This document shows positions 10,409-23,354 of a stretch of 64,000 nt of DNA, piece by piece. Below the pieces are notes generated by a model, which was not told the origin of the DNA, made no database searches, and saw nothing but the letters and a program-made list of their open reading frames with translations. Numbering within the stretch: the first letter of the stretch is position 1; every line of letters begins with the position of its first letter. This stretch comes from Blastocatellia bacterium (GTDB lineage: Bacteria > Acidobacteriota > Blastocatellia > UBA7656), in assembly GCA_963765495.1 (NCBI GenBank), contig CAVXWP010000008.1:416001-480000 (forward strand). Reading direction: 5' to 3'. Both the position numbers and the translations under genes were made by a program.

Positions 10409-10478
10409 TTGACCCAAAGAGATAAGCCGACTTTATCAGTGGACTTTGGGAACCAACCATTCACGTTTAGGAGGAAGG

Positions 10479-12371
10479 ATGATTAACAGCCCCGGATCGC
10501 GTATTTCAGCGGTCAAGTTCTTTTTGTTTATAAACACATTTCTTGTTTTTGCGGTCATTGCCCCCTCTGACATCCGGGCGCAGCCGCCGGACCCGATCAG
10601 TTATTCGTTGCGATTCCCGGCCCCACATACACACTATGTCACGGTAGAGGCCATGGTGCCTACAGACAAGCGGCCACGAATCGAAATGATGATGGCTGTC
10701 TGGACGCCGGGCTCTTATCTTGTGAGAGAGTTTGAACGCAATGTTGAGGACTTGAAGGCCAGGACATTCGAGGGCAAGCCTCTTGATGTTCATAAAACGT
10801 TAAAGAACAGGTGGGTTTTTGAGACCGGCGGCTCACCGTCGATCATCATCTCTTACAGGGTCTATTGCCACGAAATGTCGGTTCGAACCAACTGGGTAGA
10901 TGCGGGATTCGCGCTTCTCAACGGCGCTCCGACCTTCATGACGCTGGTCGAGGATGGAAAGCGGCCACACGATGTACAGGTATACCTGCCGCCGGGATGG
11001 ACCCAGTCGCTTACGGGACTGCCCGAGATGCCGGGCGGGGGAGTCAATCATTACATCGCAAAGGATTTCGACACGCTCGTCGATTCCCCAATAGTTGCGG
11101 GCAATCCGGCTGTCTACGAATTTGAAGTGGCGGGTAAGAAACACTTTCTTGTAAACGTAGGCGAGGGGGGAGTGTGGGACGGCCCCAGATCGGCAAAGGA
11201 TGTTGAGAAAATAGTCCGCGAAAACCTCAAGTTATGGGGATTTCTCCCTTACGACAAATATCTTTTCCTGAACATGATTGTCGAATCGGGCGGAGGTCTT
11301 GAGCACAAGAATTCTACGGTGATGATGACCAGCCGGTGGGCGACGAGGACCGAGCGGCGCTATAAGGGATGGCTCGGACTGGTGAGTCACGAATATTTCC
11401 ACGCCTGGAATGTGAAGCGACTGAGGCCGGTCGAGCTTGGCCCGTTCAATTATGAAACCGAGGTCTACACAAAGAGCCTTTGGATAGCCGAGGGAATCAC
11501 AAGCTATTACGGTGAGCTTCTATTGCGGCGCGCCGGGCTGATCACACAGGATGATTATCTTGAGGGCCTTTCAAATGACGTTGCCCAGTTGCAAAACACA
11601 CCGGGCCGGCTGGTTCAGCCCGTTGAGATGGCATCATACGACGCGTGGATAAAGGCCTACCGCCCGGATGAAAATTCGACAAACACCGAGATCAGTTATT
11701 ACACAAAAGGATCGGTGCTTGGGTTTCTGCTCGACGCCAGGATAAGACACGCAACCAATGGTGCTAAGAGCCTCGACGACGTGATGAGACTGGCCTATCA
11801 GCGATATTCCGGCGAGCACGGATATACGCCGCAGGATTTTCAAAAGACAGCTTCCGAAGTTGCCGGGACTGATTTGAGTAGCTGGTTTAAGAAGTCCCTT
11901 GAGACCACCGAGGAACTGGACTATACAGAGGCTCTCGACTGGTTTGGATTGGAGTTCAAGAATCCTTCGGAGACCAAAAAACAGGAGGCTGCCGGTAAGG
12001 AGGAGCCCGCCGAAAACAACGCGCCTGAGAAAAAGGGGAAGGCGTGGCTCGGGGTGAACACAAGAGTTAATGACGGCCGCATAGTGGTGACTCAGATTCG
12101 ACGAGAGACACCGGCATACGACGCCGGGTTTAACGTGGACGATGAAATCCTCGCAGTAGATGATTATCGAGTCACGGCATCTCAGTGGCCATCGAGGCTC
12201 GAGCAGTACAAACCGGGCGACAAGATTTCGGTACTGGTCGCGAGGCGAGACCTTTTGATGAGAATAGAGACCACGCTCGGGACCGAACCTCTCAATCAGT
12301 GGAAACTTCAGGTAAAACCAAAAGCCACGGATGCGGACAAAATGCATTCAAAGGGATGGCTCGGGGCCTGA
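10479..12371 (+). CDS. M61 family metallopeptidase with C-terminal PDZ domain
   Basis: WTPGSY, GGGLEH, HEYFHAWNVKR, LWIAEG, SYYTKG, PDZ tail, signal peptide. Confidence 0.92.
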   Translation: MINSPGSRISAVKFFLFINTFLVFAVIAPSDIRAQPPDPISYSLRFPAPHTHYVTVEAMVPTDKRPRIEMMMAVWTPGSYLVREFERNVEDLKARTFEGKPLDVHKTLKNRWVFETGGSPSIIISYRVYCHEMSVRTNWVDAGFALLNGAPTFMTLVEDGKRPHDVQVYLPPGWTQSLTGLPEMPGGGVNHYIAKDFDTLVDSPIVAGNPAVYEFEVAGKKHFLVNVGEGGVWDGPRSAKDVEKIVRENLKLWGFLPYDKYLFLNMIVESGGGLEHKNSTVMMTSRWATRTERRYKGWLGLVSHEYFHAWNVKRLRPVELGPFNYETEVYTKSLWIAEGITSYYGELLLRRAGLITQDDYLEGLSNDVAQLQNTPGRLVQPVEMASYDAWIKAYRPDENSTNTEISYYTKGSVLGFLLDARIRHATNGAKSLDDVMRLAYQRYSGEHGYTPQDFQKTASEVAGTDLSSWFKKSLETTEELDYTEALDWFGLEFKNPSETKKQEAAGKEEPAENNAPEKKGKAWLGVNTRVNDGRIVVTQIRRETPAYDAGFNVDDEILAVDDYRVTASQWPSRLEQYKPGDKISVLVARRDLLMRIETTLGTEPLNQWKLQVKPKATDADKMHSKGWLGA

Positions 12372-12407
12372 TTTCTAAAATGTCATTCAGGAAATTTGGA
12401 ATAGGGT

Positions 12408-12487
12408 ACGGATGACACGGATCGGGCGGATAAACACGGGGTAGACCTTATTTGATTTAGTCCGCGTAATTCCACCCAATCCGTGGT
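12408..12487. repeat. Second copy of the CGGAT-periodic intergenic palindromic element
   Basis: ACGGATGACACGGATCGGGCGGATAAACACGG aligns with 5160-5193. Lies between convergent genes. Confidence 0.7.
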
Positions 12488-12493
12488 CTGTTT

Positions 12494-13477
12494 CTATTCG
12501 CCATTTTTTGGATTTCCCGCCTGTCTTGACTTTCGCTGTAACTCCCGGAGCCTTCGGTATCCAATCCGTTTTATCCCCTGAGATTCAAGCAAGCGACGTA
12601 TCCCTTCATCGGTTGTAAAGAGCCTGTGTTCGGTGGCACGCATCTGCCAGGAACCAGTAATGTGCTGCATCTCTTCGCCAGCAAGCGCAGCGTGGATATA
12701 GAGTTCGGTGACTCCGGGTTTCAACTCGCTCAGTATGCGGGGCCAGTAGGCTTCGACCGACTCTCCGGGTTTTCGCATGTCGTGAATCAGGTAGTCAGGA
12801 TAGATAATCCCATCTTCATCGAGCTGGCCACGCTGATGTCCCCCGCCCCCGGCAACCAGTTGGTCCTGAGACGCCATCCTGATCGGCAGATCAAACTCCT
12901 TCGCAAGCCGCCTGTACATCTGGAAATACTGCTCGTTGTACTGCATGGTGCCCATGTGCGAATCCAGATGCGTGACATCTATCCCTGCGGCCAGCGCTTT
13001 TTGAATCTGCGCGCGAGCTTCGATATAAGCCTGCTCGGGTGTGGAATTCTTATAAACTCTTTCGACATCAGGCCACAAATATCCCTGCGGATCAACGAGG
13101 CCGGGCACCTCCGATTTAGAAGCAACAGGTCCCCACTTGTAATGCTTCCACTCGCTTGTCTGAACGAGGTGTAATCCAAAATCAGCCTCCGGGTGAGTCA
13201 CGGCGTAATCCGCAATCTCAAGAAACCACGGGCACGGAACCATAATGCTCCCGCTTGTGATCAGCCCGTGCTCCATCCCGTCAATAGTCGCGGCATTCGA
13301 CGCGTGGCTCATGCCTACATCATCGCCGTTGACGATCAGAATTTTATCGTTCTTGTTAAAGCCCAGACGCTCGGCCAGGGTCAATTTGCCGGATTGGGGA
13401 TCTTTCTTATTCTGGAAGGCAAAAGCCGATAACAGGGGCGTGAGGACAAGGAAAATCAGTAAAGCCAGGATTCTCAT
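12494..13477 (-). CDS. YdjC/ChbG family carbohydrate deacetylase, exported
   Basis: LIVNGDDVGM, GLHL, THLDSHMG, signal peptide. Confidence 0.85.
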   Translation of the reverse strand: MRILALLIFLVLTPLLSAFAFQNKKDPQSGKLTLAERLGFNKNDKILIVNGDDVGMSHASNAATIDGMEHGLITSGSIMVPCPWFLEIADYAVTHPEADFGLHLVQTSEWKHYKWGPVASKSEVPGLVDPQGYLWPDVERVYKNSTPEQAYIEARAQIQKALAAGIDVTHLDSHMGTMQYNEQYFQMYRRLAKEFDLPIRMASQDQLVAGGGGHQRGQLDEDGIIYPDYLIHDMRKPGESVEAYWPRILSELKPGVTELYIHAALAGEEMQHITGSWQMRATEHRLFTTDEGIRRLLESQGIKRIGYRRLRELQRKSRQAGNPKNGE

Positions 13478-13527
13478 CTTTCAATATCCTTTCTTCTAAT
13501 ATTTCCGTTCATTCACCGCAGTGATGC

Positions 13528-14007
13528 TTACTCCTGAGGTCGCGCGGGAACAAGCAACCTGAGCATCCAGAGCATCAGACAACCCGTTGCCGCTCCAAAC
13601 AGAGTGCCGGCACCGATGCCAAGCGTCAGATGCCCCAGTATGTGACGCACGTGGTATATATCATCTCCGGGCGCGGAAAATTCGGGCGCGGTGTAGATAT
13701 TATTTATCCCGGTAATGACTGCAAAGAGTATCGCAAGAATAACAAGCACCTGCCCCCAGGCGACCAGGAGAAAGGATGAGAGAACAACGCTCGGATAGCT
13801 GCCATACACCTTCATGTGGATAATGAATACGGCGAGCAGGACCGAAAGCGAAGCCGCTCCGGTCACGCTGAACAGGTGCACGAGCCCCGGCGATACGCCT
13901 GCCGAGTCAAGCACGAGCCTCAAAATCCAGACCGCCGCGATAAACCCAAAAAGAGGCGTCAGCATATGTAAATGGTCGGCCAGCCCGTGCTCTCCGATTC
14001 TCATCAT
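13528..14007 (-). CDS. Hypothetical membrane protein with about 4 TM segments
   Basis: Four hydrophobic stretches, 10 bp downstream of the PP2C gene. Confidence 0.7.
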   Translation of the reverse strand: MMRIGEHGLADHLHMLTPLFGFIAAVWILRLVLDSAGVSPGLVHLFSVTGAASLSVLLAVFIIHMKVYGSYPSVVLSSFLLVAWGQVLVILAILFAVITGINNIYTAPEFSAPGDDIYHVRHILGHLTLGIGAGTLFGAATGCLMLWMLRLLVPARPQE

Positions 14008-14017
14008 ATCCCCCTAT

Positions 14018-14959
14018 TCAGCTTTCAATCGCCCTCACAATCAAGAGCGTCATATCATCTTCAAGTTCTTTGCCCGACCAGCTACTGACTGCGTCAAGCA
14101 CAAGCCTCTGGATTGCAGCAAGCGGCTTTTTCGCATGGGCTTCGATCAAGGCCGCAAGCCTCTGTTCCCCGAATTCATCTCCGATTGCCGATGTCGCCTC
14201 CGTTATGCCGTCAGAGTATAACACCACGATGTCTCCCGGCAGCATTTCAACCGTCCCGGTCTCGAATTGCGCTTCCGGGAACATACCAAGCGGCATGCCC
14301 CCTTTATCCAGTTGCTGGCCGCGACACGAACCCGCAAGGATGGGCAAGAGGTGCCCGGCATTTATGTAGGAGAGCCGTCGCCGGGAAGGGTCGAACTCGG
14401 CATAGAAGAACGTCGCGAACTTTGAATCATCAGTCACCTGATGAAGGTGACGATTCAGCCGCGAGCAGACTTCACAAGGCGTCTGAGATGATTGAGCCAG
14501 CGTGCGCAGAACCGCCTGTAGGTTGGCCATGATTATCGCCGCCGATATTCCTTTTCCGCTTATGTCGGCGATGGCAAAGATAAGCCTGCCGTCGGGCAAT
14601 TGCATCACATCATAATAATCCCCGCTTATCCCTCGGGCAGGGATGCAGATGGCTGAAAACTCAAGCCCTTCGCTTGGCAAATGTCTGGGAAAGAGCGCCC
14701 TCTGCACCTCCCTCGCAAAATTCAACTCTGCTTCCTTCCGCGCAAGCTGGTGACGGCTCGCCTGGAGTTCCAGCCTCACTCGATAGAGCGATGCAAGAAG
14801 AACAGCCGCCGCCGTCGTGCCGCCAAATGTCAGCCCCCACGTAATCAGCACCGATTGTTGAAGAAGATTCCGCCCCAGAAAAAGGAGCAGGCCCGCGCCC
14901 AGCAGAAAGCCGATCAAATAAACTCTGTCTCTATTCTCTTTTACCAGGGAGTTTTCCAT
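14018..14959 (-). CDS. Membrane-anchored PP2C/SpoIIE (RsbU-like) Ser/Thr phosphatase
   Basis: Two N-terminal TMs, SGDYYD, IADISGKG, INAGH, LYSDG, EDDMT. Confidence 0.92.
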   Translation of the reverse strand: MENSLVKENRDRVYLIGFLLGAGLLLFLGRNLLQQSVLITWGLTFGGTTAAAVLLASLYRVRLELQASRHQLARKEAELNFAREVQRALFPRHLPSEGLEFSAICIPARGISGDYYDVMQLPDGRLIFAIADISGKGISAAIIMANLQAVLRTLAQSSQTPCEVCSRLNRHLHQVTDDSKFATFFYAEFDPSRRRLSYINAGHLLPILAGSCRGQQLDKGGMPLGMFPEAQFETGTVEMLPGDIVVLYSDGITEATSAIGDEFGEQRLAALIEAHAKKPLAAIQRLVLDAVSSWSGKELEDDMTLLIVRAIES

Positions 14960-14974
14960 AACCGTAGATTCGGG

Positions 14975-17368
14975 CTAAAACCTTCGCTTCTCTTCATCCA
15001 ACACCTGCGCTACGAGTTCAAACTCTTCTCTTAGCCGCTTGATGAGGGATACTGCTTCGGGTCCTACAGTGATCGAGTGTTCATCTTCAAGGGCTTCGCA
15101 AATCTCCTTCATTCGCCCGGCCCCAAGTGTCAGGCAACTGCCCTTTAGCGCGTGGGCCGCCTGTTTTATAGTCTTCCCATCCCGGTCAGCAAGCGCGCTC
15201 TCAAGAGTCGCTATCCGTTTTGGCGCGTCCGCAAGAAAAATGTTTAGCAACTCGATCACAAGTCCACGGTTGCCTGCGCCTGCAAACTTTGAAAATTCAT
15301 CCAGGACGGCAAGATCAACCGCCTGCTCTTTTGCCGTCCCTTTGATTGCTTGATCGGGTCTCTCTTGAGGTTTGTCCGCCACAGACGCACCCCATCGGCC
15401 AAGCACCCGCATCAAGTCTGCGGGCCGTATAGGTTTGCTGATGTAGTCATCCATGCCCGCTTCAAGACACCTCTCCCGATCACCCTGCATAGCGTTTGCC
15501 GTCATCGCTATTATCGGGATATGGCCTAAATCGCCTTCACGGCTTCGAATTTCAGCCGTAGCTTCATAACCATCCATCACAGGCATCTGACAATCCATCA
15601 AGATTAGATCAAAGGTTTCATTCTCAAACGCACCAAGCGCATCCGAGCCGTTTGACGCGGCGCGGACGCTGTGGCCAAGTTTCTGAAGTTGCACAAGCGC
15701 GATCTGCTGGTTGACCGGATTATCTTCGACAAGAAGGATGCGCGCGGGTCGTGAATTCGCGCTCTCAATGTAGGCGGAGACGGCAGCGGCTGCGCGCTCT
15801 TCCTCAAGTGCCGGGTCAGTGATTGATCGTTCCTCAAACAATACCGTGAACCAGAATGTGGCCCCCTCACCCGGCTTGCTGATGACGCCGATCTCGCCTC
15901 CCATCATCTCGACAAGCTGCTTTGAGATTGCGAGTCCAAGCCCGGTTCCTCCAAACTTGCGAGTCGTGGAAGTGTCCGCCTGAATAAAGGGTTGGAACAA
16001 TCGTTTACAAGCCTCTTCGGAAATCCCTATGCCGGTATCTTTGACCTCAAACCTTATTCGGATTTGAGAATCGAGCGTTTCAGTGGGCTCGACGCGGAGG
16101 ATGATCTCTCCCTTCTGGGTGAATTTTATGGCGTTTCCCAGCAGATTCATGAGCACCTGCCGCAATCGAGTAGGGTCACCGCCTACGATCATCGGCACGT
16201 CCTCGTGGATCTGCGGCCACATCTCGACCCCTTTTATGTGGGCCTGCTCTCTCAAAAGAGTTATGACGCTTTCAATGGTTTCGCGCAGGTTGAATGTCAC
16301 AGTTTCGAGCGATAGCTTTCCTGCCTCTATCTTTGAAAAATCGAGAATGTCGTTGATTATGGTCAAAAGCGTCTCGGCGCTTGTTTGTGCTGTCTCAGCA
16401 TACTTGCGCTGTTGTTCGTCAAGACCGGTTTCAAGCAATAGGTCGGTCATCCCAATGACGCCGTTCATCGGGGTGCGTATCTCGTGGCTCATCATGGCTA
16501 GAAACCCTGACTTTGCGCGACTCGCTTCGAGCGCGACCTCTCTTGCGGAGATCAAATCTCGTTCAAGGTTCTTTCTCCGTGTAATGTCGCGGACAATCGC
16601 AAGAACCTCTTCGCGCCCGCATCCTGCTATCCTGATTTCATAATCGCGCAACTCATCGCGTCTTGGGAATCGGAATTCGAATAACTCAAGCAGATTACCT
16701 TCAAGCACTCGAACCACACATTCCATTATCTGATCTGAGAGCTCTTCCGGCAGGACAGACGATATATTTTTCCCCACTACCCCCGACAATAAAGAGAGAT
16801 GATCGCCCCCCTTTCTCATTCTGCAATCAAGGATGTTTCCGTCCCTGCTCAATTGCAACATTATGTCCGGGATCGCATCCAACAGGGCGCGGTTACGCGC
16901 TTCGGCCCGGCGAAGCGCTTCTTCGGCGCGGGCGAGTCGCTCATAATCGAGGCTTTTCTCCCTCGCCTTCTGAGCCAGTGGCTGCACCTCTTCGTAATCG
17001 AATCTGAGCGGCTCGATGACAAGTATGTCTTTCCCATCCAGGTAAAGAGCCGACAATTCGATCTGTCTCTCATTGCCTTCTGTATCATTCTCTGCCCACG
17101 CGCCGGATTTTATACGGCCTTCAACCTTTTTCTTCCAGAAAGAATCAGCCTCTTCGAGAAAATATTCCACGAAGTAAAACTTCTCCTGTGGCCTTAATCC
17201 GTGACGGCTGGCACGACTCTCCGGGTAGAGGCGGACAAACCAGTCCGGGATCGCACTGATCGCATTGAAAGAGCCGTCATCATTGCGTTCAAATACAACC
17301 ATGTCGAAGGCGGCCAAAACGTTTTCAAGCTTGGTTTCGTCTGTCATGCTATTTTGAGCTCTAATCAT
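14975..17368 (-). CDS. Cytoplasmic hybrid histidine kinase (N-terminal PAS-like, PAS, HisKA, HATPase, REC, Hpt)
   Basis: [47 protein letters not shown]. Confidence 0.94.
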
Positions 17369-17427
17369 GCCGCAAGAGATCAGTAGTGATGAAAAGTTGT
17401 ATAGGGAAACCTGCTATGACAGCTTGA

Positions 17428-17922
17428 TCATTCGATCATCTTCCCGGCGAGTGCCGTAAAAAGGTCTTCAACACCCTCTCCCGACTTCGCGCTTGTCCGA
17501 ATAACTGACCATCCATTCTGCACCAGATTCTCGATAGAGTCTGAAGGCAGATCCCATTCCTCGTCCAGATCAATCTTGTTGATGGCAAGGATAAACGGGG
17601 CAGTCGCTATTGCCTCGCTTGCCTTCTCTTGAAGCTCCATAGCTTTGTCGAGCGTCCCCCTCCGGGTCGCATCTGCGACGAGCAGATACCCGGATGTCCC
17701 ACGCAGATATGATACTTTCAACTGCGAATACTCATCATCCCCGGCAAGGTCCCATAAGATCAAAGTCACTTCCTTCTGAGAGAGCTGGACCACTTTCTTC
17801 TCAATTTTCACCCCGACTGTCGTATGGTATTTTTCCGAGAAAATGCTCTTTACGTATCGAGCCACAAGGCTCGTCTTTCCAACCCCGGATGCACCTAGCA
17901 TACAGATTTTTTTCTGGAACAA
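17428..17922 (-). CDS. Rab/Ras-superfamily small GTPase (Rup-like)
   Basis: G1 GASGVGKT, G2 TTVG, G3 WDLAG, G4 NKID, G5 TSAK. TTG start with AAGGAG RBS. Confidence 0.92.
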   Translation of the reverse strand: MFQKKICMLGASGVGKTSLVARYVKSIFSEKYHTTVGVKIEKKVVQLSQKEVTLILWDLAGDDEYSQLKVSYLRGTSGYLLVADATRRGTLDKAMELQEKASEAIATAPFILAINKIDLDEEWDLPSDSIENLVQNGWSVIRTSAKSGEGVEDLFTALAGKMIE

Positions 17923-17934
17923 GGGTTAGCTCCT

Positions 17935-19701
17935 TTAGCGTGAGCCATCGGGTCTGTCCGCAAGGACTACTTTAACCCTGGCTTCCCGACCGTACCGTCT
18001 GTTTTGCGGCTCGGACGACGTTGCTCCATCATTGCCGTCGTCAACGTTGTTTGTATCAATACCCTTTGAGGAGAGCGCCGAGGTCAGGGCCTGAGCGCGG
18101 TCCTGACTAAGTCTCTGGTTTATGGCGTCGGGACCGCTCTTGTCGGTGTTGCCTGTCGTATTGATGCGAAGGCTCTTTCCTATTGAAGGGACTATCGCCT
18201 CAAGCCTTTTTATGTCCGTTATGAGCGCATCAAGTTCGATTTCCTGATCCGAAGGGAGTTCGGCGCTGCCGACAGCGAATTGGATGGCTCGACCCTCGAT
18301 CTGCTCTTTGAGTCTGTTGATCTCTCTCGTTATCCGCTCTCGATCAATCAGGTTGTCGTCTTTGTAGCCGTAAACCGAAGAGAGCACCTGAGAGAGCCTG
18401 CGCGATTCGGCAATCCAAGCTTCGGGGGCATTACCTTCGGCTACGAGGAATCCATCCTCGACCTTTAAGGTTACGGTGGGGGGAGGCTGGAGCAGTTTTG
18501 AAGCCCTCGCAAGAACAAATTCCGGGTTGGATGCCTGAAACGGTTCCCACCTGCTCACAACCTTGTCGGGCTCGACATTCGTCCCGTTTAAGAGAGCTAG
18601 GGGGTCGGCGGCAAGCGGATCTCTAAGCCCCGAGACAAGATGTTTCCCTCCCCGCTTCTCATCAGAAATCAGTATAATGCCGGGCTCGGATTTCAATTTT
18701 GCCAGATAGGCATCCCAGCGCCAGGCATCGCGAAAGTAAAAAAATGCCCAGAGACCGATTGCGAGGATCACCATCGCGGCCAGCACCCAGAAAAACGGGC
18801 TGCTCTTTTTCTCCTCTTCGACTATCGGAGTTTCGAGGCAGGCTTCAAGTCTGGGGCGGCAGGCTTCAAAGGGCTCGGTCTCTCCATCAAACATCTCAAA
18901 TGCATCGCGTTGTTCGACCTGGATGGCATCAAGCGTATCCTGTAACAGGTCCTGAAATCTTCGGGGCGCATTTCCTCGTACAGCCGCTGCGAGCATCGCC
19001 TGTGGTCCCTGCTCCAGCCAGCCCGTAAACTCACCAACCTTGAATTCATCGAGCGATTCGGACTCTCTCGCCCATTTTGAATCGTGGGCGAAATCCTGAA
19101 GCGCCGTAAGAAGCCCCGATAACATCTCAGGGTCCTGATCGCCTTCGGATTCTATCGGTACCTTTTGCAGCAGCAGTCCCGTCTCTCTGTGAATCAACAG
19201 GACGTGCTCTACCTTGTAGCGCATCGTGTGACTCAGGACCACTTCGGCAAATGACTTCCCCGATCTCAGGGCCTCGAGCCGCCATTTCAGTCCTTTGATT
19301 GAAATGCTGTATTCCAGGGTCTTATTCAGTGACTGAACCATCTCGCTGAAGGCGTTAGAGATGGCTTTGCGAATCGCCGGCCCCATGACTGGAAAGATCG
19401 CGTCTACGAGTCTCTGGGGATTCTTTTTTACAGATACAGAGATGGCTTCTTCGACCGAAGGCATAATCGCTCTGGTCAATTTATCATCTCTATCCGTACG
19501 CAATTTGACCGCGTCCGGCAACACGCGGCTCACATCCCGGGCATATTGCACGGGGTCGTCAAGCCTCTGCTGTAGTCTTCTGACCTGATTCAACTCCGGC
19601 CCGATCAGCAGACTGCGAAGCTCATCGAATTCCTCGGAGGCCGAGTCGGGTCTGTCTGCGCCGGTCTCTTCCGGGGAGGCCGGTGCAACTCTCTCAGCCA
19701 T
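17935..19701 (-). CDS. Bitopic membrane protein: cytoplasmic helical and longin/roadblock-like region, one TM, periplasmic OmpA-like peptidoglycan-binding domain
   Basis: TM FFWVLAAMVILAIGLWAFFYF. OmpA-like motifs IQFAVGSA, GNTDKSG, NQRLSQDRA. The ATG at 19701 overlaps the upstream stop. Confidence 0.8.
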   Translation of the reverse strand: MAERVAPASPEETGADRPDSASEEFDELRSLLIGPELNQVRRLQQRLDDPVQYARDVSRVLPDAVKLRTDRDDKLTRAIMPSVEEAISVSVKKNPQRLVDAIFPVMGPAIRKAISNAFSEMVQSLNKTLEYSISIKGLKWRLEALRSGKSFAEVVLSHTMRYKVEHVLLIHRETGLLLQKVPIESEGDQDPEMLSGLLTALQDFAHDSKWARESESLDEFKVGEFTGWLEQGPQAMLAAAVRGNAPRRFQDLLQDTLDAIQVEQRDAFEMFDGETEPFEACRPRLEACLETPIVEEEKKSSPFFWVLAAMVILAIGLWAFFYFRDAWRWDAYLAKLKSEPGIILISDEKRGGKHLVSGLRDPLAADPLALLNGTNVEPDKVVSRWEPFQASNPEFVLARASKLLQPPPTVTLKVEDGFLVAEGNAPEAWIAESRRLSQVLSSVYGYKDDNLIDRERITREINRLKEQIEGRAIQFAVGSAELPSDQEIELDALITDIKRLEAIVPSIGKSLRINTTGNTDKSGPDAINQRLSQDRAQALTSALSSKGIDTNNVDDGNDGATSSEPQNRRYGREARVKVVLADRPDGSR

Positions 19702-20323
19702 TGCCGAGTTCCTCCGAACCGGGGATCGTAAACTCATTATTCAGCCGCATCGCAAGCTCGTTAAACATCGCCGCAAGCGCCGACCGATCAGTCTTATCCG
19801 ATCTAAGCTCGGTCGCTTCGCGGTCGAGCGAGGCCCGTATCTCGTCGTGTTTTCGGCGGAGGTCGTCCGACAGGGTCTTTGACTGGTCGAGAATCTGGTC
19901 TCTCAGTTCGCGATGGCTCTGGTTTATCTGATCATCGATCTGCGCCGTCCTTTTCTCGAAATTCCTGGTCAACTCGCCAAGTTCGCGCGATAGTTGCTGG
20001 TCTGATCCGTCGCGTTCATCCCGTTCGGCCCTCAGCCGGTCGCCTAAAGAGGCCATCTCTCCCTTTATGTAAGCCTCCAGCGAATCGAGGCGCTGCCTTA
20101 CTTCGTCCCTGAGATCGGCAGAATCTTTTGCGAGTCGCTCTTCGAGACGGGCAAAACGCCTGTCGATCTCTTTTGCCTGCGATCCAAACAGAATATCTCT
20201 AATCTTGTCGAGGCTCCCAACATTTTGCTGTTCGCCACGATTCTCCACGTTTGGAGAAGAGGGGGCAGGCACAGCACTCTGCCCGTCCTGTGATGAAGGT
20301 TCCAGCATGCTTTCTTCTGTCAT
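19694..20323 (-). CDS. Coiled-coil protein, first gene of the GTPase operon
   Basis: Heptad-rich acidic/Arg helix, LDKIRDILFG and DRSALAAMFNELAMRL, AAGGAG RBS. Confidence 0.8.
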   Translation of the reverse strand: MTEESMLEPSSQDGQSAVPAPSSPNVENRGEQQNVGSLDKIRDILFGSQAKEIDRRFARLEERLAKDSADLRDEVRQRLDSLEAYIKGEMASLGDRLRAERDERDGSDQQLSRELGELTRNFEKRTAQIDDQINQSHRELRDQILDQSKTLSDDLRRKHDEIRASLDREATELRSDKTDRSALAAMFNELAMRLNNEFTIPGSEELGNG

Positions 20324-21110
20324 TGGAAATTGCTCCTTGGTTTTACTTGTATCGAGGGGTTTGGCGCTCGATTCTTACTCGTCGAGCGATGCACCCGAAA
20401 TCGAGCTATTTCAAAACTGCTCTTCCCTGTTCGTCTGTTCCCTGATTAGAGCGAACCCAATATATCACAAAACAATTCTCTTAGGAATTTTGGTTATTTG
20501 ATTCCGCTCCCCAGAAACAGACGATGAAGAAGACGGGTATCGAGCGTAAGGGGAAGAATAGAAAGGATTCTGATGCAAAATCAGATTGGCAGGCCGGGTG
20601 AGTTTCGTTTTTCACAGGTGTGTTTTGCAACGGGAATGCCCCTTTAACAGGTCCAGTTAGAAAGAATAAGTATGAGAGCGCGTTCCACGCGCGGGCGTGT
20701 AGAGCTTTTGCCTGTACATGCAAGGGCATTTCAACACGAGGCCCTTATCAATACCGCGCCCTCATAACGTGGAACATTAGACCATAACTCCAGTTTGTAC
20801 ACATCGGACCAGAATGCCTTTTTTCAGGCATCTTTGTACTATTTCTATTCCGCCCGTATTGGCCCTATTGTGCCAGTGTGAAGGGTCACCCCTGCCAGAT
20901 CACTGCTATCAACGCCGCTTTTACAACTTGATCTTGTGACGAGGGAATATGCTTGCGTCAGGGCCATTCAGTTTTCAAGATATATTTAGGGAAAAAGGAT
21001 ACCGTTTGATTGCTAAGAATAATTCTCTTATAATCTGCGCGGATTTTCATTTCGCATTTTTTGCATAAGACATTTTCATTGACTAACCAAGAGGTTTCAA
21101 AATACACGCC

Positions 21111-21545
21111 ATGTCGACAAACGAGGCCCATCCGATCCGCATCATCATCGTAGACGATCACCCTGTAGTACGAGCCGGTTTAAAGTTGATCGTAAACAGT
21201 CAATCGGGGTTGCAAATAGTCGGGGAAGCCGAAGATCGGGCGGGAGCACTCGAACTGGCAGGACGCGAAAAACCGGACATCATTTTGCTGGACCTCGATC
21301 TGGGTGAAGACAACGGCCTTGAACTTATGCCGGAGTTGCAACGCCTTGCCGAATCGGCAAGGGTCGTGATTTTGACCGGGCTCAACGATCCTGAAATGCA
21401 TCGCCGCGCGGTTCGGCTCGGAGCGATGGGCGTAGTGCTTAAGGAGAGCGCCAATCAGTCGATCCTTGCGGCCATCAGGTCCGTGAGCGAGGGCGAAATC
21501 TATCTGGATCGAACTCTGATGTCTAGTTTGATGGATGAGGGGTGA
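21111..21545 (+). CDS. NarL-type receiver domain protein lacking the LuxR HTH
   Basis: IVDDHPVVRAG, PDIILLDL, ILTG, VLKES. Stops at 144 aa. Confidence 0.8.
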   Translation: MSTNEAHPIRIIIVDDHPVVRAGLKLIVNSQSGLQIVGEAEDRAGALELAGREKPDIILLDLDLGEDNGLELMPELQRLAESARVVILTGLNDPEMHRRAVRLGAMGVVLKESANQSILAAIRSVSEGEIYLDRTLMSSLMDEG

Positions 21546-21716
21546 TTCCACTAAGGGAGATGCGTGACGGGTGAAGAGAGAGAAAGAATCAGATCACGCT
21601 CTCATCTCTAACAATTGAACTCGCGGGATTGATTCGTTTCTCACCGCGCCGTATTATTGTATTCCCTCTTGGCGAACGTACTATTCCCACTATCGAAGGT
21701 AGAAGGAGTGCATCAC

Positions 21717-23354
21717 ATGCAAGCTCAACGACCTAAAAAGGTAGTCATACTCGGCGGAGGATTTGCAGGGGTCTATACAGCACAGTATCTGGAAAAGGCG
21801 CTCGGAAAGAATGAGGATTTTGAAATAACCCTCATAAATAAGGAGAACTACTTTGTTTTCCAGCCGATGTTGCCCGAAATAATCTCCGGCAGCATAGGTA
21901 TTCTCGACACCGTAAGTCCGATTCGACGCCTGCTGCCTCGTACATCGCTTCACGTACGCGACATCGAATCAATAGATTTGAAGAATCGCGTAATCACTAC
22001 CAGTCCCGGATTTCGGCCACACGCCCACCTGATCCCTTTTGATTATCTGGTCATCGCGCTCGGCAATGTGACCGATTTTCGTGGATTGCGCGGGCTGCCC
22101 GAACACGCCATACCTTTCAAGAATCTCGCCGACGCGCTCTATATCAGAAACCACCTCATCCGAGCCCTTGAAGAGGCTGCAATTGAGCACGATGACCTGG
22201 ATTTGCGTAAGCAATTGCTTACTTTTGTGGTGGCCGGTGGGGGCTTTTCAGGCGTGGAGGCCGTCGCGGAATTAAACGATTTTGTTCGAGAGATTGCGCG
22301 CAGCTATCGCGGGATCGACCCGGCGGAAATACGCGTTGTACTTGTCCACTCACAGGATCGCATCCTTCCCGAGGTCTCAGAAAAGCTGGCCCTGTTTGCG
22401 CAGAATCTTCTGAAAAAGCGAGGCGTAGAGGTTCTGCTAAACACGAGGCTTGAGGCTGCCACCGGGGAAGAGGCTATCCTGAAGGGTGGTATCCAAATCC
22501 CTACGCGTACGCTGATTTCGACCGTGCCGTCTTCTCCTCACCCGATTGTCGATAGCCTCGATTTGCCAAAGGGTAAGAACGGCAGGTTGATAACAAACCG
22601 GCACCTTGAAGTGGAGGGGACAGACCACATCTGGGCGCTGGGCGATTGCGCGCTTGTTCCAGAACCGGGAAGCGAAGGATTCTGCCCGCCTACGGCTCAG
22701 CACGCAATCCGACAGGGGCGAACGGCCGCACACAACATCATCGCGAAGATTAGAGGAGGAGAGAAACGGACCTTCGATTTCAAGGGGCTGGGGAAGATGG
22801 GGGCGCTCGGCCATCGCTCGGCAGTAGCTGAAATCTTTGGAATCAACATATCCGGTTTTGTAGCCTGGTGGATGTGGCGTTCAATCTATCTGATGAAACT
22901 GCCGGGATGGGGGCGAAGATTGAGAGTCGCTACAGATTGGACGCTCGATCTGTTGCTGCCTGCCGAACTGGTCCAATTAAAACTCGCGGGGTCGATGGGA
23001 ATCACACAGGAACATTTTGAACCCGGTGAAGAAATCTTTCGACAGGGCGATCTTGGGGACAGGATTTACATTATCGTCAGCGGGAAGGCTGATGTGATAC
23101 GAGAAGAAGAGGGCGGCGAGATAAAACTTGCCCAGCTTGAAATGGGCCAGTATTTCGGTGAGATGGCATTGCTAAAGAAGGCCACGCGCAGCGCGACCAT
23201 AAGGTGTACAGCCCCGATGGACACCCTGAGCTTGCCTAAACGCGAATTCAGCCTGCTTACCGCTTACCTCCCCGAGTTGCGGGCAAATTTTGAACAGGTA
23301 ATGGAAGAACGCAATCGCGCAAACACCGAGAAGGTTATGCACGCCGATGAATAG
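21717..23354 (+). CDS. ndh: Type II NADH dehydrogenase-like flavoprotein fused to a C-terminal cyclic-nucleotide-binding domain
   Basis: GGGFAG, VAGGGFSGVE, WALGDCA, PTAQHA. The C-terminus has FRQGDLGD, FGEMAL and RSATIR. Confidence 0.85.
   Translation: MQAQRPKKVVILGGGFAGVYTAQYLEKALGKNEDFEITLINKENYFVFQPMLPEIISGSIGILDTVSPIRRLLPRTSLHVRDIESIDLKNRVITTSPGFRPHAHLIPFDYLVIALGNVTDFRGLRGLPEHAIPFKNLADALYIRNHLIRALEEAAIEHDDLDLRKQLLTFVVAGGGFSGVEAVAELNDFVREIARSYRGIDPAEIRVVLVHSQDRILPEVSEKLALFAQNLLKKRGVEVLLNTRLEAATGEEAILKGGIQIPTRTLISTVPSSPHPIVDSLDLPKGKNGRLITNRHLEVEGTDHIWALGDCALVPEPGSEGFCPPTAQHAIRQGRTAAHNIIAKIRGGEKRTFDFKGLGKMGALGHRSAVAEIFGINISGFVAWWMWRSIYLMKLPGWGRRLRVATDWTLDLLLPAELVQLKLAGSMGITQEHFEPGEEIFRQGDLGDRIYIIVSGKADVIREEEGGEIKLAQLEMGQYFGEMALLKKATRSATIRCTAPMDTLSLPKREFSLLTAYLPELRANFEQVMEERNRANTEKVMHADE

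What the first reader, a model, noticed from the sequence alone, without database searches (positions are those of the whole stretch)
13528..20323. Envelope-anchored small-GTPase signalling operon: coiled-coil, OmpA/longin membrane protein, Rab-like GTPase, hybrid kinase, PP2C
Seen: six co-oriented genes with gaps of -8 to about 60 bp, and a GTPase with intact G1-G5, a G3 reading DLAGD (no catalytic Gln) and no prenylation tail. Known: prokaryotic Rup-type Ras GTPases have been noted computationally next to two-component genes, and I know of no functional study of them. Inference: the peptidoglycan-bound bitopic protein sets the GTPase nucleotide state, which is read by the kinase's unusual N-terminal domain and relayed via Hpt and an RsbU-like phosphatase. 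This would be a eukaryote-like GTPase relay sensing the envelope.
Basis: partly seen in the sequence, partly recalled or inferred. Interest (0 to 1): 0.85.

Follow-up and report, generated by a model that had tools for sequence, protein, structure and literature searches.

The report
Bacterial Rab-like GTPase signalling operon
This is a soil bacterium's copy of a widespread but never experimentally studied four-gene module in which a small Rab-like GTPase sits between a cell-wall-anchored membrane protein and a histidine kinase, and fold predictions now suggest which parts talk to the GTPase.

Summary
Six co-oriented minus-strand genes at 13528-20323 encode a helical protein, a bitopic OmpA-domain protein, a 164-aa Ras/Rab-like GTPase (G3 = DLAGD, no lipid tail), a soluble hybrid histidine kinase, a membrane SpoIIE/PP2C phosphatase and a small membrane protein.

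The first four genes are the "Group 1 Rup" system that Wuichet and Søgaard-Andersen described computationally (PMC4316618). So the module is known in silico. I found no functional study.

Gene order g1-g2-GTPase is kept in 36-38 of 39 informative loci from at least five phyla.

New here:
- The unknown cytoplasmic domain of the OmpA protein models as a longin fold (Sec22 Z 13.1).
- The kinase's N-terminal 150 residues (N1) model as a divergent PAS-like domain, with a nearly invariant Gln in its C-terminal helix.
- A second input domain (N2) exists.
- In a 151-genome class sample, N1 or N2 occurs in 66 of 69 genomes with the GTPase and in 1 of 82 without.
- GTPase-N1 binding gets weak support from prediction (0.50; best control 0.00).

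The proposed Hpt-to-PP2C relay is not supported. The phosphatase has no receiver domain, and it travels with the module in only 1 of 20 sampled class relatives.

The parts
19694..20323 (-). g1: 209-aa soluble, highly charged helical ('coiled-coil') protein. It has a conserved N-terminal motif DKIRDILFGxQ (R42, F46, G47, Q49 invariant in 16 rows).
   Evidence: Adjacent to g2 in 36 of 39 informative loci. No Pfam family above cut-off. No hydrophobic segment.
17935..19737 (-). g2: bitopic membrane protein. Cytoplasmic helical region (about 30-170, with the invariant motif FPVMGPAIRKAI), a longin-fold domain (about 173-307), a TM segment (311-337), a conserved periplasmic region (about 336-480) and an OmpA-like peptidoglycan-binding domain (487-565). 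The likely start is M13 at 19701.
   Evidence: Adjacent to the GTPase in 38 of 39 informative loci.
17428..17922 (-). g3: 164-aa Group 1 Rup (Rup1) Ras/Rab-like GTPase. G1-G5 are intact, G3 is DLAGD, the Ras-G12 position is Ser, and there is no lipidation tail. The TTG start at 17922 restores conserved strand residues K4, K5 and C7.
   Evidence: By profile search the best solved relatives are Rab23 (1.8e-39) and other Rabs. Single copy in its own genome.
16919..17368 (-). N1: residues 1-150 of the kinase. A divergent PAS-like input domain with an N-cap helix and a long C-terminal helix that carries the nearly invariant Q133.
   Evidence: pLDDT 90.8; all 50 VIA rows are PAS or LOV, best Z 9.0. 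Also. No Pfam model matches it. Complex prediction with the GTPase gives weak support.
14975..17368 (-). g4: soluble hybrid histidine kinase with the order N1-PAS-HisKA-HATPase_c-REC-Hpt.
   Evidence: No hydrophobic segment.
14018..14959 (-). g5: membrane-anchored SpoIIE/PP2C phosphatase with two N-terminal TM segments and no receiver domain. A lineage-specific addition.
   Evidence: Found with the module only in L060 among 20 class relatives.
13528..14007 (-). g6: 159-aa polytopic membrane protein of no known family. It travels with g5.
   Evidence: The g5-g6 pair is conserved in L060 (g6 1.4e-64).
21111..21545 (+). Divergently transcribed REC-only response regulator (144 aa), separated from g1 by a 787-bp intergenic region. 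A candidate terminal acceptor of the Hpt domain; this is inference.
   Evidence: Similar REC genes lie within 7 kb of the module in 5 of 11 same-family loci.

Best explanation
The locus is a Group 1 Rup (Rup1) small-GTPase signalling module with two lineage-specific genes appended.

Proposed mechanism:
- g2 is an inner-membrane protein. Its OmpA-like domain ties it to peptidoglycan, and its conserved periplasmic region is the likely input.
- Its cytoplasmic helical region and longin-fold domain, probably together with the helical protein g1, control the nucleotide state or the membrane residence of the Rab-like GTPase g3. I favour a GEF-like role, by analogy with longin-based Rab GEFs.
- GTP-bound g3 then binds the PAS-like N1 domain of the soluble hybrid kinase g4. 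It changes kinase activity through N1's C-terminal helix.
- The His-Asp-His relay ends on a separate receiver protein, possibly the divergent REC-only gene.
- g3 lacks the catalytic Gln and carries Ser at the Ras-G12 position. Hydrolysis therefore probably needs a residue supplied in trans. The nearly invariant Q133 of N1 is the published candidate, which would make the effector its own timer.

Shown: the gene set, its conservation, the domain folds (as predicted models) and the phyletic coupling.
Inferred: every binding and catalytic step, the membrane topology, and the nature of the signal.
For: Identity with the published Group 1 Rup neighbourhood:
- The paper describes a coiled-coil protein, an unknown domain + TM + OmpA protein, a rup gene without the G3 Gln, and an output protein whose N-terminal region carries a conserved Gln (PMC4316618, passages).
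- This matches.

Conserved order:
- Cross-phylum set (20 loci: Bryobacterales/Acidobacteriota, Aulosira, Verrucomicrobiota, Gemmatimonadota, a betaproteobacterium). g2 is adjacent in 18 of 19 informative loci, g1 in 16 of 19, and N1 lies downstream in 13 of 18.
- 20 loci from the window's own class. g1-g2-g3 is kept in 20 of 20, N1 in 19 of 20, and the last locus has N2.
- None of the 21 loci with more distant GTPases (28-40% identity) carried g1, g2 or N1.

Longin fold:
- The AF2 model of g2 residues 30-312 has mean pLDDT 68.9. By the 10-residue block means the strands are mostly 73-89 and the C-terminal helices 89-93; the first helix and the loop after it are only 49-65.
- Model residues 144-278 match Sec22 (Z 13.1), VAMP7 (12.3), synbindin (12.0), CPLANE (11.5), a Lokiarchaeota longin (11.2) and Mon1-Ccz1 (9.8).
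- Roadblock proteins (MglB, MglC, LAMTOR) match at Z 8-8.8 over a shorter span. All 50 rows are longin or roadblock. Foldseek agrees.

N1:
- pLDDT 90.8. All 50 VIA rows are PAS or LOV.
- Of 113 family representatives, 61 are histidine kinases, 4 HD-GYP type, 3 GGDEF, 3 sigma-54 activators, 2 SpoIIE, 1 Ser/Thr kinase and 2 Hpt-only. This is the behaviour of a portable input domain.

Phyletic coupling in 151 genomes of the class:
- GTPase in 69.
- N1 in 41, of which 40 have the GTPase.
- N2 in 44, all of which have the GTPase.
- So 66 of 69 GTPase-positive genomes carry N1 or N2, against 1 of 82 GTPase-negative genomes. Related genomes are not independent.

Other:
- g4 has no membrane segment, so it needs a protein or cytoplasmic input.
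- Predicted complex of g3 + GTP + Mg + N1: ipSAE 0.58, 0.50 and 0.48 (median 0.50), best of 3 controls 0.00, contacts agreeing at least 91% between runs, partner pLDDT at least 78.
- The tool calls this weak support. In its calibration the mark was reached by 116 of 157 solved complexes and 2 of 215 mismatched pairs. A score of 0.60 or under was seen in only 18 of those solved complexes and in both passing mismatches.
Against: - No experiment exists for any Rup1 system in the papers I could search.
- The longin assignment rests on a model of middling overall confidence. No sequence-level support was found: Pfam gave nothing on the cytoplasmic part, and a profile search of PDB sequences hit only OmpA domains.
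- A shared fold does not show GEF or GAP activity.
- The complex score is in the band the tool calls more often wrong than right unless the guess was likely beforehand. No interface was given, so Q133's position relative to the nucleotide is unknown.
- Q133 is not strictly invariant. It is present in 13 of 14 locus sequences; L017 has Glu.
- Some GTPase loci have outputs with neither N1 nor N2. Examples are the Gemmatimonadota PP2C genes in L018 and L019, and three class genomes.
- One genome (G016) has an N1 kinase with no detectable GTPase.
- g2-GTPase binding was not tested, because the only complex job went to N1.
- The promoter and terminator scans were at chance level, and no RNA run was listed. 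Co-transcription is therefore inferred from the spacing alone.
Confidence: 0.6

Rival explanations
1. Spatial or polarity module rather than an envelope sensor. The OmpA domain merely fixes g2, and with it the GTPase cycle, at a cell-wall landmark such as a pole or septum. This would resemble MglA/MglB/RomRX. The GTPase would then recruit or activate the soluble kinase locally, with no periplasmic signal involved.
For: - Longin and roadblock partners of bacterial small GTPases are best known from the MglA polarity system (abstracts listed).
- g4 is soluble.
- OmpA-like domains are anchors, not ligand sensors.
- g1 is a long helical protein of a scaffold type.
Against: - A conserved periplasmic region of about 145 aa between the TM segment and the OmpA domain is kept across phyla (g2peri hits in every locus that has g2). 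This is more than an anchor would need.
- The output domains are general signalling enzymes rather than motility proteins.
- No motility genes are seen in the neighbourhoods examined.
Confidence: 0.2
2. Reversed roles. The longin domain of g2 acts as the GAP or an inhibitory platform, as roadblock MglB does. N1 (or N2) would be a pure effector, and Q133 would be structural, in the helix that couples to the kinase, rather than catalytic.
For: - MglB and MglC roadblock structures also match the g2 model at Z 8.7-8.8.
- Q133 lies in the long C-terminal helix that leads into the next domain, a usual signalling helix.
- L017 has Glu at that position.
- The complex output gave no contacts.
Against: - The best fold matches are longin domains of the kind found in Rab GEF complexes (TRAPP synbindin and sedlin, Mon1-Ccz1, CPLANE) rather than roadblock GAPs.
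- The Gln motif (LQKAR / QQKA / QQKG) is retained in both N1 and N2, which otherwise differ strongly.
Confidence: 0.15
3. Phage-defence or conflict system built on a GTPase switch.
For: g1 gives weak hits to the helical tails of ZorA and to LmuB in PADLOC (best 3.6e-06, 23.7 bits). In one locus (L010) a phage-type ORF6N/Rha gene lies in the position of g1.
Against: - g2, g3, g5 and g6 gave no PADLOC hit at E <= 0.001. The g4 hits are generic REC and ATPase similarity.
- The module is mostly single copy, is patchy by family but not by genus, and is fused to housekeeping-type signalling outputs.
- No nuclease or other effector of a toxic type was seen.
Confidence: 0.03

Closest known systems
Group 1 Rup (Rup1) GTPase system, defined computationally by Wuichet and Søgaard-Andersen (Genome Biol Evol 2015; PMC4316618)
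   Same: All four defining genes are present in the same kind of neighbourhood:
- a small Ras-superfamily GTPase without the G3 Gln and without an MglB gene;
- a coiled-coil protein;
- a protein with an unknown domain, a TM helix and an OmpA domain;
- an output protein (here a histidine kinase) whose N-terminal region carries a conserved Gln.
   Different: The window adds a membrane PP2C (g5) and a small membrane protein (g6).

The host's best hits are to Blastocatellia (Acidobacteriota). [quoted passage not shown]

I did not open the paper's supplementary table S2, which may already list some of these.
MglA-MglB (and the actinobacterial conservon CvnA-D)
   Same: A bacterial small Ras-like GTPase is paired with a partner from the roadblock/longin structural superfamily. 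In the conservon it is also linked to a histidine kinase in one operon.
   Different: MglA belongs to a different GTPase family. MglB is a small soluble roadblock dimer, not a membrane-anchored longin-type domain joined to an OmpA domain. No Roadblock Pfam match was found here.
Eukaryotic Rab with longin-domain GEFs (TRAPP, Mon1-Ccz1, the CPLANE Inturned-Fuzzy complex with Rab23, DENN)
   Same: By sequence profile the GTPase family is closest to Rab23 and other Rabs among solved structures. The g2 domain is closest in fold to longin domains, including those of these GEF complexes.
   Different: - No prenylation tail.
- The catalytic Gln is replaced by Asp.
- The longin domain is a single copy on a bitopic membrane protein, whereas these GEFs are multi-longin complexes.
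- Homology, as opposed to fold resemblance, is not shown.
Rap and RapGAP (recalled from general knowledge, not from any call)
   Same: A Ras-family GTPase lacks the catalytic Gln and needs a carboxamide residue supplied in trans by its partner.
   Different: RapGAP supplies an Asn from a dedicated GAP domain. Here the candidate is a Gln on the helix of a PAS-like effector domain. No similarity of the partner proteins was seen.

Membership tests
Group 1 Rup (Rup1) system | Small (<240 aa) single-domain Ras-superfamily GTPase with canonical G1-G5 | tested here: met
   164 aa. Ras PF00071 at 4.2e-33. Motifs read.
Group 1 Rup (Rup1) system | G3 motif lacks the catalytic Gln | tested here: met
   DLAGD in the window. 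In the rows shown from the 43-sequence alignment the residue after the invariant Gly is E, D or R, never Q.
Group 1 Rup (Rup1) system | Adjacent coiled-coil cytoplasmic protein | tested here: met
   g1 homologues are adjacent in 36 of 39 informative loci. It is soluble. The coiled coil itself was not run through a predictor.
Group 1 Rup (Rup1) system | Adjacent protein with a conserved unknown domain, a TM helix and a C-terminal OmpA domain | tested here: met
   Adjacent in 38 of 39 informative loci.
Group 1 Rup (Rup1) system | Signal-output protein whose N-terminal region carries a conserved Gln | tested here: met
   Q133 of g4 is nearly invariant (at least 90%) in alignments of 14, 63 and 15 rows. 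N1 or N2 lies downstream in 34 of 38 informative loci.
Group 1 Rup (Rup1) system | Placement inside the Rup1 clade in a phylogeny with reference Rup1, Rup2, MglA and eukaryotic sequences | not tested
   No tree was built. Indirect evidence: 55-60% identical homologues in Nostoc, a genus in which the paper places a Group 1 member.
Longin domain | beta-beta-alpha-beta-beta-beta-alpha-alpha topology and structural match to solved longin domains | tested here: met
   Model elements are E146-154, E160-165, H174-191, E201-205, E208-214, E218-225, H230-246 and H259-272. Matches: Sec22 Z 13.1 (rmsd 2.6, 123 aligned) and VAMP7 Z 12.3. This rests on a predicted model only.
Longin domain | Sequence-profile match to a curated longin or roadblock family | tested here: inconclusive
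   No Pfam or NCBIfam hit on g2 residues 1-480 at E <= 0.01. A profile search against PDB sequences hit only OmpA domains.
Roadblock/LC7 (MglB-like) | alpha-beta-beta-alpha-beta-beta-beta fold without the C-terminal longin helices | tested here: inconclusive
   MglB, MglC and LAMTOR match at Z 8.0-8.8 over model residues 145-250 only. Longin hits score higher and extend over the C-terminal helices.
PAS domain (for N1) | Five-stranded antiparallel sheet with flanking helices; match to solved PAS domains | tested here: met
   pLDDT 90.8. Best Z 9.0 (DvhD PAS) and 8.9 (short LOV). All 50 rows are PAS or LOV. Z values are middling. No PAS Pfam model matches residues 1-150.
Rab family proper | C-terminal Cys prenylation motif and catalytic Gln in switch II | tested here: not met
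   The C-terminus is ...GKMIE and G3 is DLAGD. 'Rab family GTPase' is only the name some sources give.
RsbU-type partner-switching phosphatase receiving a phosphorelay | Receiver or RsbU N-terminal regulatory domain on the PP2C, and STAS or anti-sigma partners nearby | tested here: not met
   g5 has only two TM segments plus SpoIIE. No STAS or anti-sigma gene appears among the window genes examined between 8495 and 24464. The rest of the genome was not searched for them.

The most novel reading that the evidence does not exclude
The bacterial Rup1 module may be a true homologue of the eukaryotic Rab plus longin-GEF pair, not just a look-alike.

On this reading a peptidoglycan-tethered, membrane-anchored longin protein loads GTP onto a Rab-like GTPase in response to an envelope cue. 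Portable PAS-like effector domains (N1, N2) both read the GTP state and supply the missing catalytic Gln, so that each output enzyme receives a self-timed pulse.

That would place the GTPase-longin partnership, so far traced to archaeal roadblock proteins, also in Bacteria. It would give bacteria a G-protein-style relay upstream of two-component, c-di-GMP, cyclase, PP2C and sigma-54 outputs.
Probability: 0.2. Interest if true: 0.8.

Novelty: new member of a known kind. Interest (0 to 1): 0.5.

Why it matters
Rup1 GTPases are the bacterial proteins that published trees place with eukaryotic Rab, Ras, Rho and Ran (PMC4316618; bioRxiv 2024.02.28.582541, passages). Yet I found no functional study of them.

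Three results turn a gene-neighbourhood note into specific binding and enzyme assays:
- a longin fold is assigned to the conserved membrane partner;
- a PAS-like fold is assigned to the output proteins' shared N-terminal domain;
- the two input domains almost never occur without the GTPase.

If the longin domain proves to be the exchange factor, the finding bears on where the Rab-longin partnership arose. It would also show how a soluble kinase can be driven by a cell-wall-anchored sensor through a G protein.

Tried and rejected
- Promoter and terminator consensus scans of 12300-21200: 5 promoter-like sites against 6.3 expected and 12 terminator-like sites against 8.9 expected. This is not informative.
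- Public sequencing runs: one DNA holder (share 0.59), and no RNA holder listed. No reads were laid, so nothing can be said on expression.
- PADLOC: only weak hits from g1's helical composition and generic g4 domains. The defence reading was rejected.
- Similarity between the g1 and g2 N-terminal motifs: hhalign probability 8.2%, E 0.0042 over 19 columns. Too weak to claim.
- ESM Atlas search with g2 residues 30-312: the nearest clusters are unnamed bacterial proteins of 288-304 aa with no Pfam family (best score 0.94). No structure search was possible. This is a lead only: forms without the TM and OmpA parts may exist.
- Own-genome search with alignment A3: the histidine-kinase core columns in A3 dominated the results. 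Only the window's kinase covered the N1 positions.
- The N1 HMM did not detect the N-termini of the L013 SpoIIE protein, the L065 cyclase, the L018 and L019 PP2C proteins, or window g5. The first two turned out to carry N2.
- MotB-like stator reading of g2: considered because of its TM-linker-OmpA layout and its MotB hits in the OmpA part. Rejected because there is no MotA/ExbB-type partner and no charged residue in the TM segment, as read.
- Literature: five searches found no functional study of a Rup1 GTPase and no paper joining 'longin' with this bacterial system. A sixth, the four-term search 'longin / bacterial / small GTPase / OmpA', returned 0 papers. One search was swamped by the plant gene RUP1. 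The library lacks most subscription journals.

Full report
**What is there**

Six co-oriented minus-strand ORFs occupy 13528-20323:
- g1: 19694-20323, 209 aa.
- g2: 17935-19737, 600 aa. The public protein collection holds a 588-aa form starting at M13.
- g3: 17428-17922, 164 aa, TTG start.
- g4: 14975-17368, 797 aa.
- g5: 14018-14959, 313 aa.
- g6: 13528-14007, 159 aa.

The gaps are -8 (with the M13 start), +12, +59, +15 and +10 bp.

Pfam results:
- g3: Ras, 4.2e-33.
- g2: only an OmpA domain at residues 487-565, 30 bits against a cut-off of 27.2.
- g4: HisKA, HATPase_c, Response_reg and Hpt, plus a sub-threshold PAS_4 match at 163-266.
- g5: SpoIIE, 3.4e-54.
- g1, g6, g2 residues 1-480 and g4 residues 1-150: nothing.

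The GTPase has G1 GASGVGKT, T35, G3 DLAGD, G4 NKID and G5 SAK, and ends in ...GKMIE.

Hydropathy gives one membrane segment in g2 (311-337), none in g4, two at the N-terminus of g5 and about four in g6.

**It is a known, computationally defined system**

Wuichet and Søgaard-Andersen (PMC4316618; I read passages found by term search) defined "Group 1 Rup" GTPases. These lack the G3 glutamine and are not coupled to MglB. They sit in a neighbourhood of three further conserved genes:
- a predicted coiled-coil cytoplasmic protein;
- a protein with a conserved unknown domain, often followed by a membrane helix and an OmpA domain;
- a signal-output protein, typically GGDEF/EAL or a histidine kinase, whose N-terminal region holds an invariant glutamine.

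The authors speculated that this glutamine is supplied in trans. They state that no Rup protein had been characterised experimentally. g1 to g4 match this description point by point.

A 2024 preprint (10.1101/2024.02.28.582541, passages) uses "Rup1" as a reference clade. It groups Rup1 with eukaryotic Rab/Ras/Rho/Ran and Asgard RasL, and adds no functional data.

Five literature searches found no functional study. A sixth, combining 'longin', 'bacterial', 'small GTPase' and 'OmpA', returned no paper. The held library lacks most subscription journals.

**Conservation**

The GTPase family is very large and well conserved. 7988 of 8000 scored candidates passed E <= 0.001, with 55-68% identity in proteins that sources name from Blastocatellia, Nostoc and Desulfomonilaceae.

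A scan of one genome per species returned 41 loci.

The 20 loci with 47-60% identical GTPases come from Bryobacterales and other Acidobacteriota, Aulosira, Verrucomicrobiota, Gemmatimonadota and a betaproteobacterium. By tblastn and iterated HMM searches:
- g2 lies directly upstream in 18 of 19 loci that have upstream sequence. L011 is the exception. L008 is cut at the contig end.
- g1 lies upstream in 16 of 19. L010, L011 and L022 lack it.
- The kinase's N-terminal domain (N1) lies directly downstream in 13 of 18 informative loci.
- None of the 21 loci with more distant GTPases has g1, g2 or N1.

I then fetched 20 loci from genomes of the window's own class:
- g1-g2-g3 is kept in 20 of 20.
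- N1 is present in 19 of 20.
- g5 and g6 are present together in only one (L060).
- g7 is present in none.

So the conserved unit is g1-g2-g3 plus an output protein. g5 and g6 are a lineage-specific pair.

**The g2 cytoplasmic domain models as a longin fold**

I modelled residues 30-312 with a 40-row alignment. Mean pLDDT is 68.9. By the 10-residue block means, the N-terminal helices are poor (44-77), the strands of the C-terminal part mostly 73-89 and its last helices 89-93, while its first helix and the loop after it are only 49-65.

Model residues 144-278 correspond to protein residues about 173-307. They have the order beta-beta-alpha-beta-beta-beta-alpha-alpha.

An all-against-representatives structural search gave these matches:
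- Sec22 longin: Z 13.1, rmsd 2.6, 123 aligned.
- VAMP7: Z 12.3.
- Synbindin: Z 12.0.
- A CPLANE subunit: Z 11.5.
- Sedlin: Z 11.3.
- A Lokiarchaeota longin: Z 11.2.
- Mon1-Ccz1: Z 9.8.

Roadblock proteins (MglC, MglB, LAMTOR) follow at Z 8.0-8.8 and align over a shorter span. All 50 rows belong to this superfamily. Foldseek gave the same families.

There is no sequence-level support, so homology is not shown.

The papers I checked trace longin domains to prokaryotic, mainly archaeal, roadblock proteins. In the passages found by term search, they do not mention a bacterial longin partner of a Rup GTPase (PMC3521125; PMC10933270).

The most conserved stretch of g2 is FPVMGPAIRKAI, with P87 and R94 of the fragment invariant. 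It falls in a low-confidence part of the model. It may be a binding element; this is inference.

**The kinase's N-terminal domain (N1) is a portable PAS-like input domain**

A full scan of 1.84 billion representatives with g4 residues 1-150 found 935 proteins at E <= 0.001. I scanned 113 of the best 149 non-self representatives listed against Pfam; the residue limit excluded the other 36. The outputs were:
- 61 histidine-kinase types;
- 4 HD_5 (HD-GYP type);
- 3 GGDEF;
- 3 sigma-54 activators;
- 2 SpoIIE;
- 1 Ser/Thr kinase;
- 2 Hpt only;
- 3 PAS or GAF only;
- 34 with no family, mostly short fragments.

No Pfam model covers N1 itself.

The AF2 model (63 rows, pLDDT 90.8) shows an N-cap helix, a five-stranded sheet with inserted helices, and a long C-terminal helix (125-149). 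All 50 structural matches are PAS or LOV domains. The best are Z 9.0 (DvhD PAS/HD-GYP) and 8.9 (a full-length short LOV protein). These Z values are middling.

Q133 lies in the C-terminal helix and is at least 90% conserved. L017 has Glu there.

**A second input domain (N2) and the phyletic pattern**

The one class locus without N1 (L070) has a kinase with a different N-terminal domain of about 140 aa. This domain resembles the N-terminus of the SpoIIE protein in L013 and keeps a QQK motif at the equivalent helix.

Iterated search found this N2 domain in 9 of the 40 Rup1-type loci:
- stand-alone in L005 (Aulosira);
- fused to SpoIIE in L013;
- fused to a class III cyclase domain in L065 and L066;
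- fused to a kinase in L070;
- in tandem N2-N1 kinases in L063, L064, L068 and L069.

Results for the same 151-genome sample of the class:
- The GTPase (E <= 1e-30) is in 69 genomes.
- N1 is in 41, of which 40 have the GTPase. The exception is G016, which still had no match at E <= 0.001.
- N2 is in 44, all of which have the GTPase.
- Hence 66 of 69 GTPase-positive genomes carry N1 or N2, against 1 of 82 GTPase-negative genomes.

Related genomes are not independent, so this is a pattern and not a statistic. It is nonetheless what is expected of dedicated GTPase-reading domains.

**Predicted binding**

The single complex job went to g3 + GTP + Mg + N1, each protein with its own alignment.
- ipSAE was 0.58, 0.50 and 0.48 (median 0.50). 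The best of 3 controls was 0.00.
- The runs agreed in at least 91% of contacts, and the partner's pLDDT was at least 78.
- The tool's verdict is weak support.
- In its calibration the mark was reached by 116 of 157 solved complexes and 2 of 215 mismatched pairs. Scores of 0.60 or under were seen in only 18 of those solved complexes and in both mismatches that passed.
- No interface was reported, so the position of Q133 is unknown.
- The calibration held no ligands and did not use my alignments.

g5 is a membrane SpoIIE/PP2C with no receiver domain, so an Hpt domain has nothing on it to phosphorylate. g5 and g6 also travel with the module in only 1 of 20 class relatives.

PP2C outputs do recur in Rup1 loci, but in other forms: N1-SpoIIE and N2-SpoIIE fusions, and plain PP2C genes next to the GTPase in two Gemmatimonadota loci. 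A link between g5 and the module is therefore possible, but by an unknown route.

A REC-only response regulator is transcribed divergently at 21111-21545, across a 787-bp spacer. Similar genes lie within 7 kb in 5 of 11 same-family loci, and one sits directly upstream of g1 in L062. It is a candidate acceptor only.

**Mechanism, with its status**

Shown:
- the gene set;
- its conservation;
- the fold predictions;
- the coupling of N1 and N2 to the GTPase;
- the solubility of g4.

Inferred:
- g2 has its N-terminus in the cytoplasm and its OmpA domain on peptidoglycan;
- g2, with g1, regulates the nucleotide state of g3, GEF-like by analogy with longin GEFs;
- g3-GTP binds N1 and modulates the kinase through the C-terminal helix;
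- hydrolysis needs a residue in trans, because g3 has Asp at the Ras-Q61 position and Ser at the Ras-G12 position (Phe in the family consensus);
- Q133 is that residue.

Rivals are a spatial or polarity role, reversed GAP and effector roles, and a defence system. The defence reading is poorly supported.

**Verdict**

The locus is real, conserved and interesting, but the system itself is already in print as a computational prediction. The window is a new member with two extra genes. The added value here is structural and phyletic evidence that makes the published hypothesis directly testable.

By best protein hits the host is probably an Acidobacteriota bacterium related to Blastocatellia. I did not try to identify it further.

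Noticed in passing
window 17901-17922: The public protein collection holds the GTPase as a 157-aa form starting at the internal ATG (M8). The TTG start at 17922 adds MFQKKIC. K4, K5 and C7 of this stretch are invariant across 43 homologues, so the longer form is very likely the real one.
   Followed up: partly
L070:10563-10970; L005:8499-8900; L013:8501-9100; L065:6840-7871; L063:10417-10840: A second Rup1-coupled input domain (N2, about 135 aa, no Pfam family). It occurs stand-alone, fused to SpoIIE, to a class III cyclase or to a kinase, and in tandem N2-N1. It was found in 44 of 151 class genomes, all of which have the GTPase. Its fold was not predicted.
   Followed up: partly
L016:7483-8489; also G009, G049 and G054: Some genomes carry two tandem copies of the Rup1 GTPase, about 50% identical to the window's, behind a single g1-g2 pair.
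   Followed up: no
G016:C4:104214-104648: A same-family genome rated 100% complete has an N1-bearing 913-aa ORF but no detectable Rup1 GTPase, even at E <= 0.001. It is the only exception to the coupling.
   Followed up: partly
L055:6170-9423: In one same-family genome the N1 kinase downstream of the GTPase is split over three reading frames. This is either frameshifts in a pseudogene or assembly errors.
   Followed up: no
window 19590-19650 and 20170-20210: g1 (DKIRDILFGxQ) and g2 (ELRxLLxxPE) begin their conserved parts with a similar short motif. The profile comparison is weak (E 0.0042, probability 8%), so this is only a hint that the two N-termini pair or bind the same thing.
   Followed up: partly
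window 21657-23354 (+): An NDH-2-type pyridine nucleotide-disulphide oxidoreductase is fused to a C-terminal cyclic-nucleotide-binding domain. It lies next to the REC-only gene.
   Followed up: no
L010:5550-6161: In a Bryobacterales locus the position of g1 is taken by a gene with a phage-type ORF6N/Rha domain. g2, the GTPase and the N1 kinase are intact there.
   Followed up: no
window 13528-14959 and L060:5974-7410: The membrane PP2C (g5) and the four-TM protein (g6) stay adjacent in the one relative that has them (1.2e-155 and 1.4e-64). This suggests that the two act as a pair.
   Followed up: partly
window 8495-12371 (+) and 12494-13477 (-): The flanking genes are envelope or peptide-turnover enzymes: an M1 aminopeptidase, an M61 glycyl aminopeptidase with a PDZ domain, and a YdjC-family deacetylase with a signal-peptide-like N-terminus. 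In the 20 class loci searched, neither the M61 peptidase nor the YdjC gene was found beside the module; the M1 peptidase was not searched for.
   Followed up: partly
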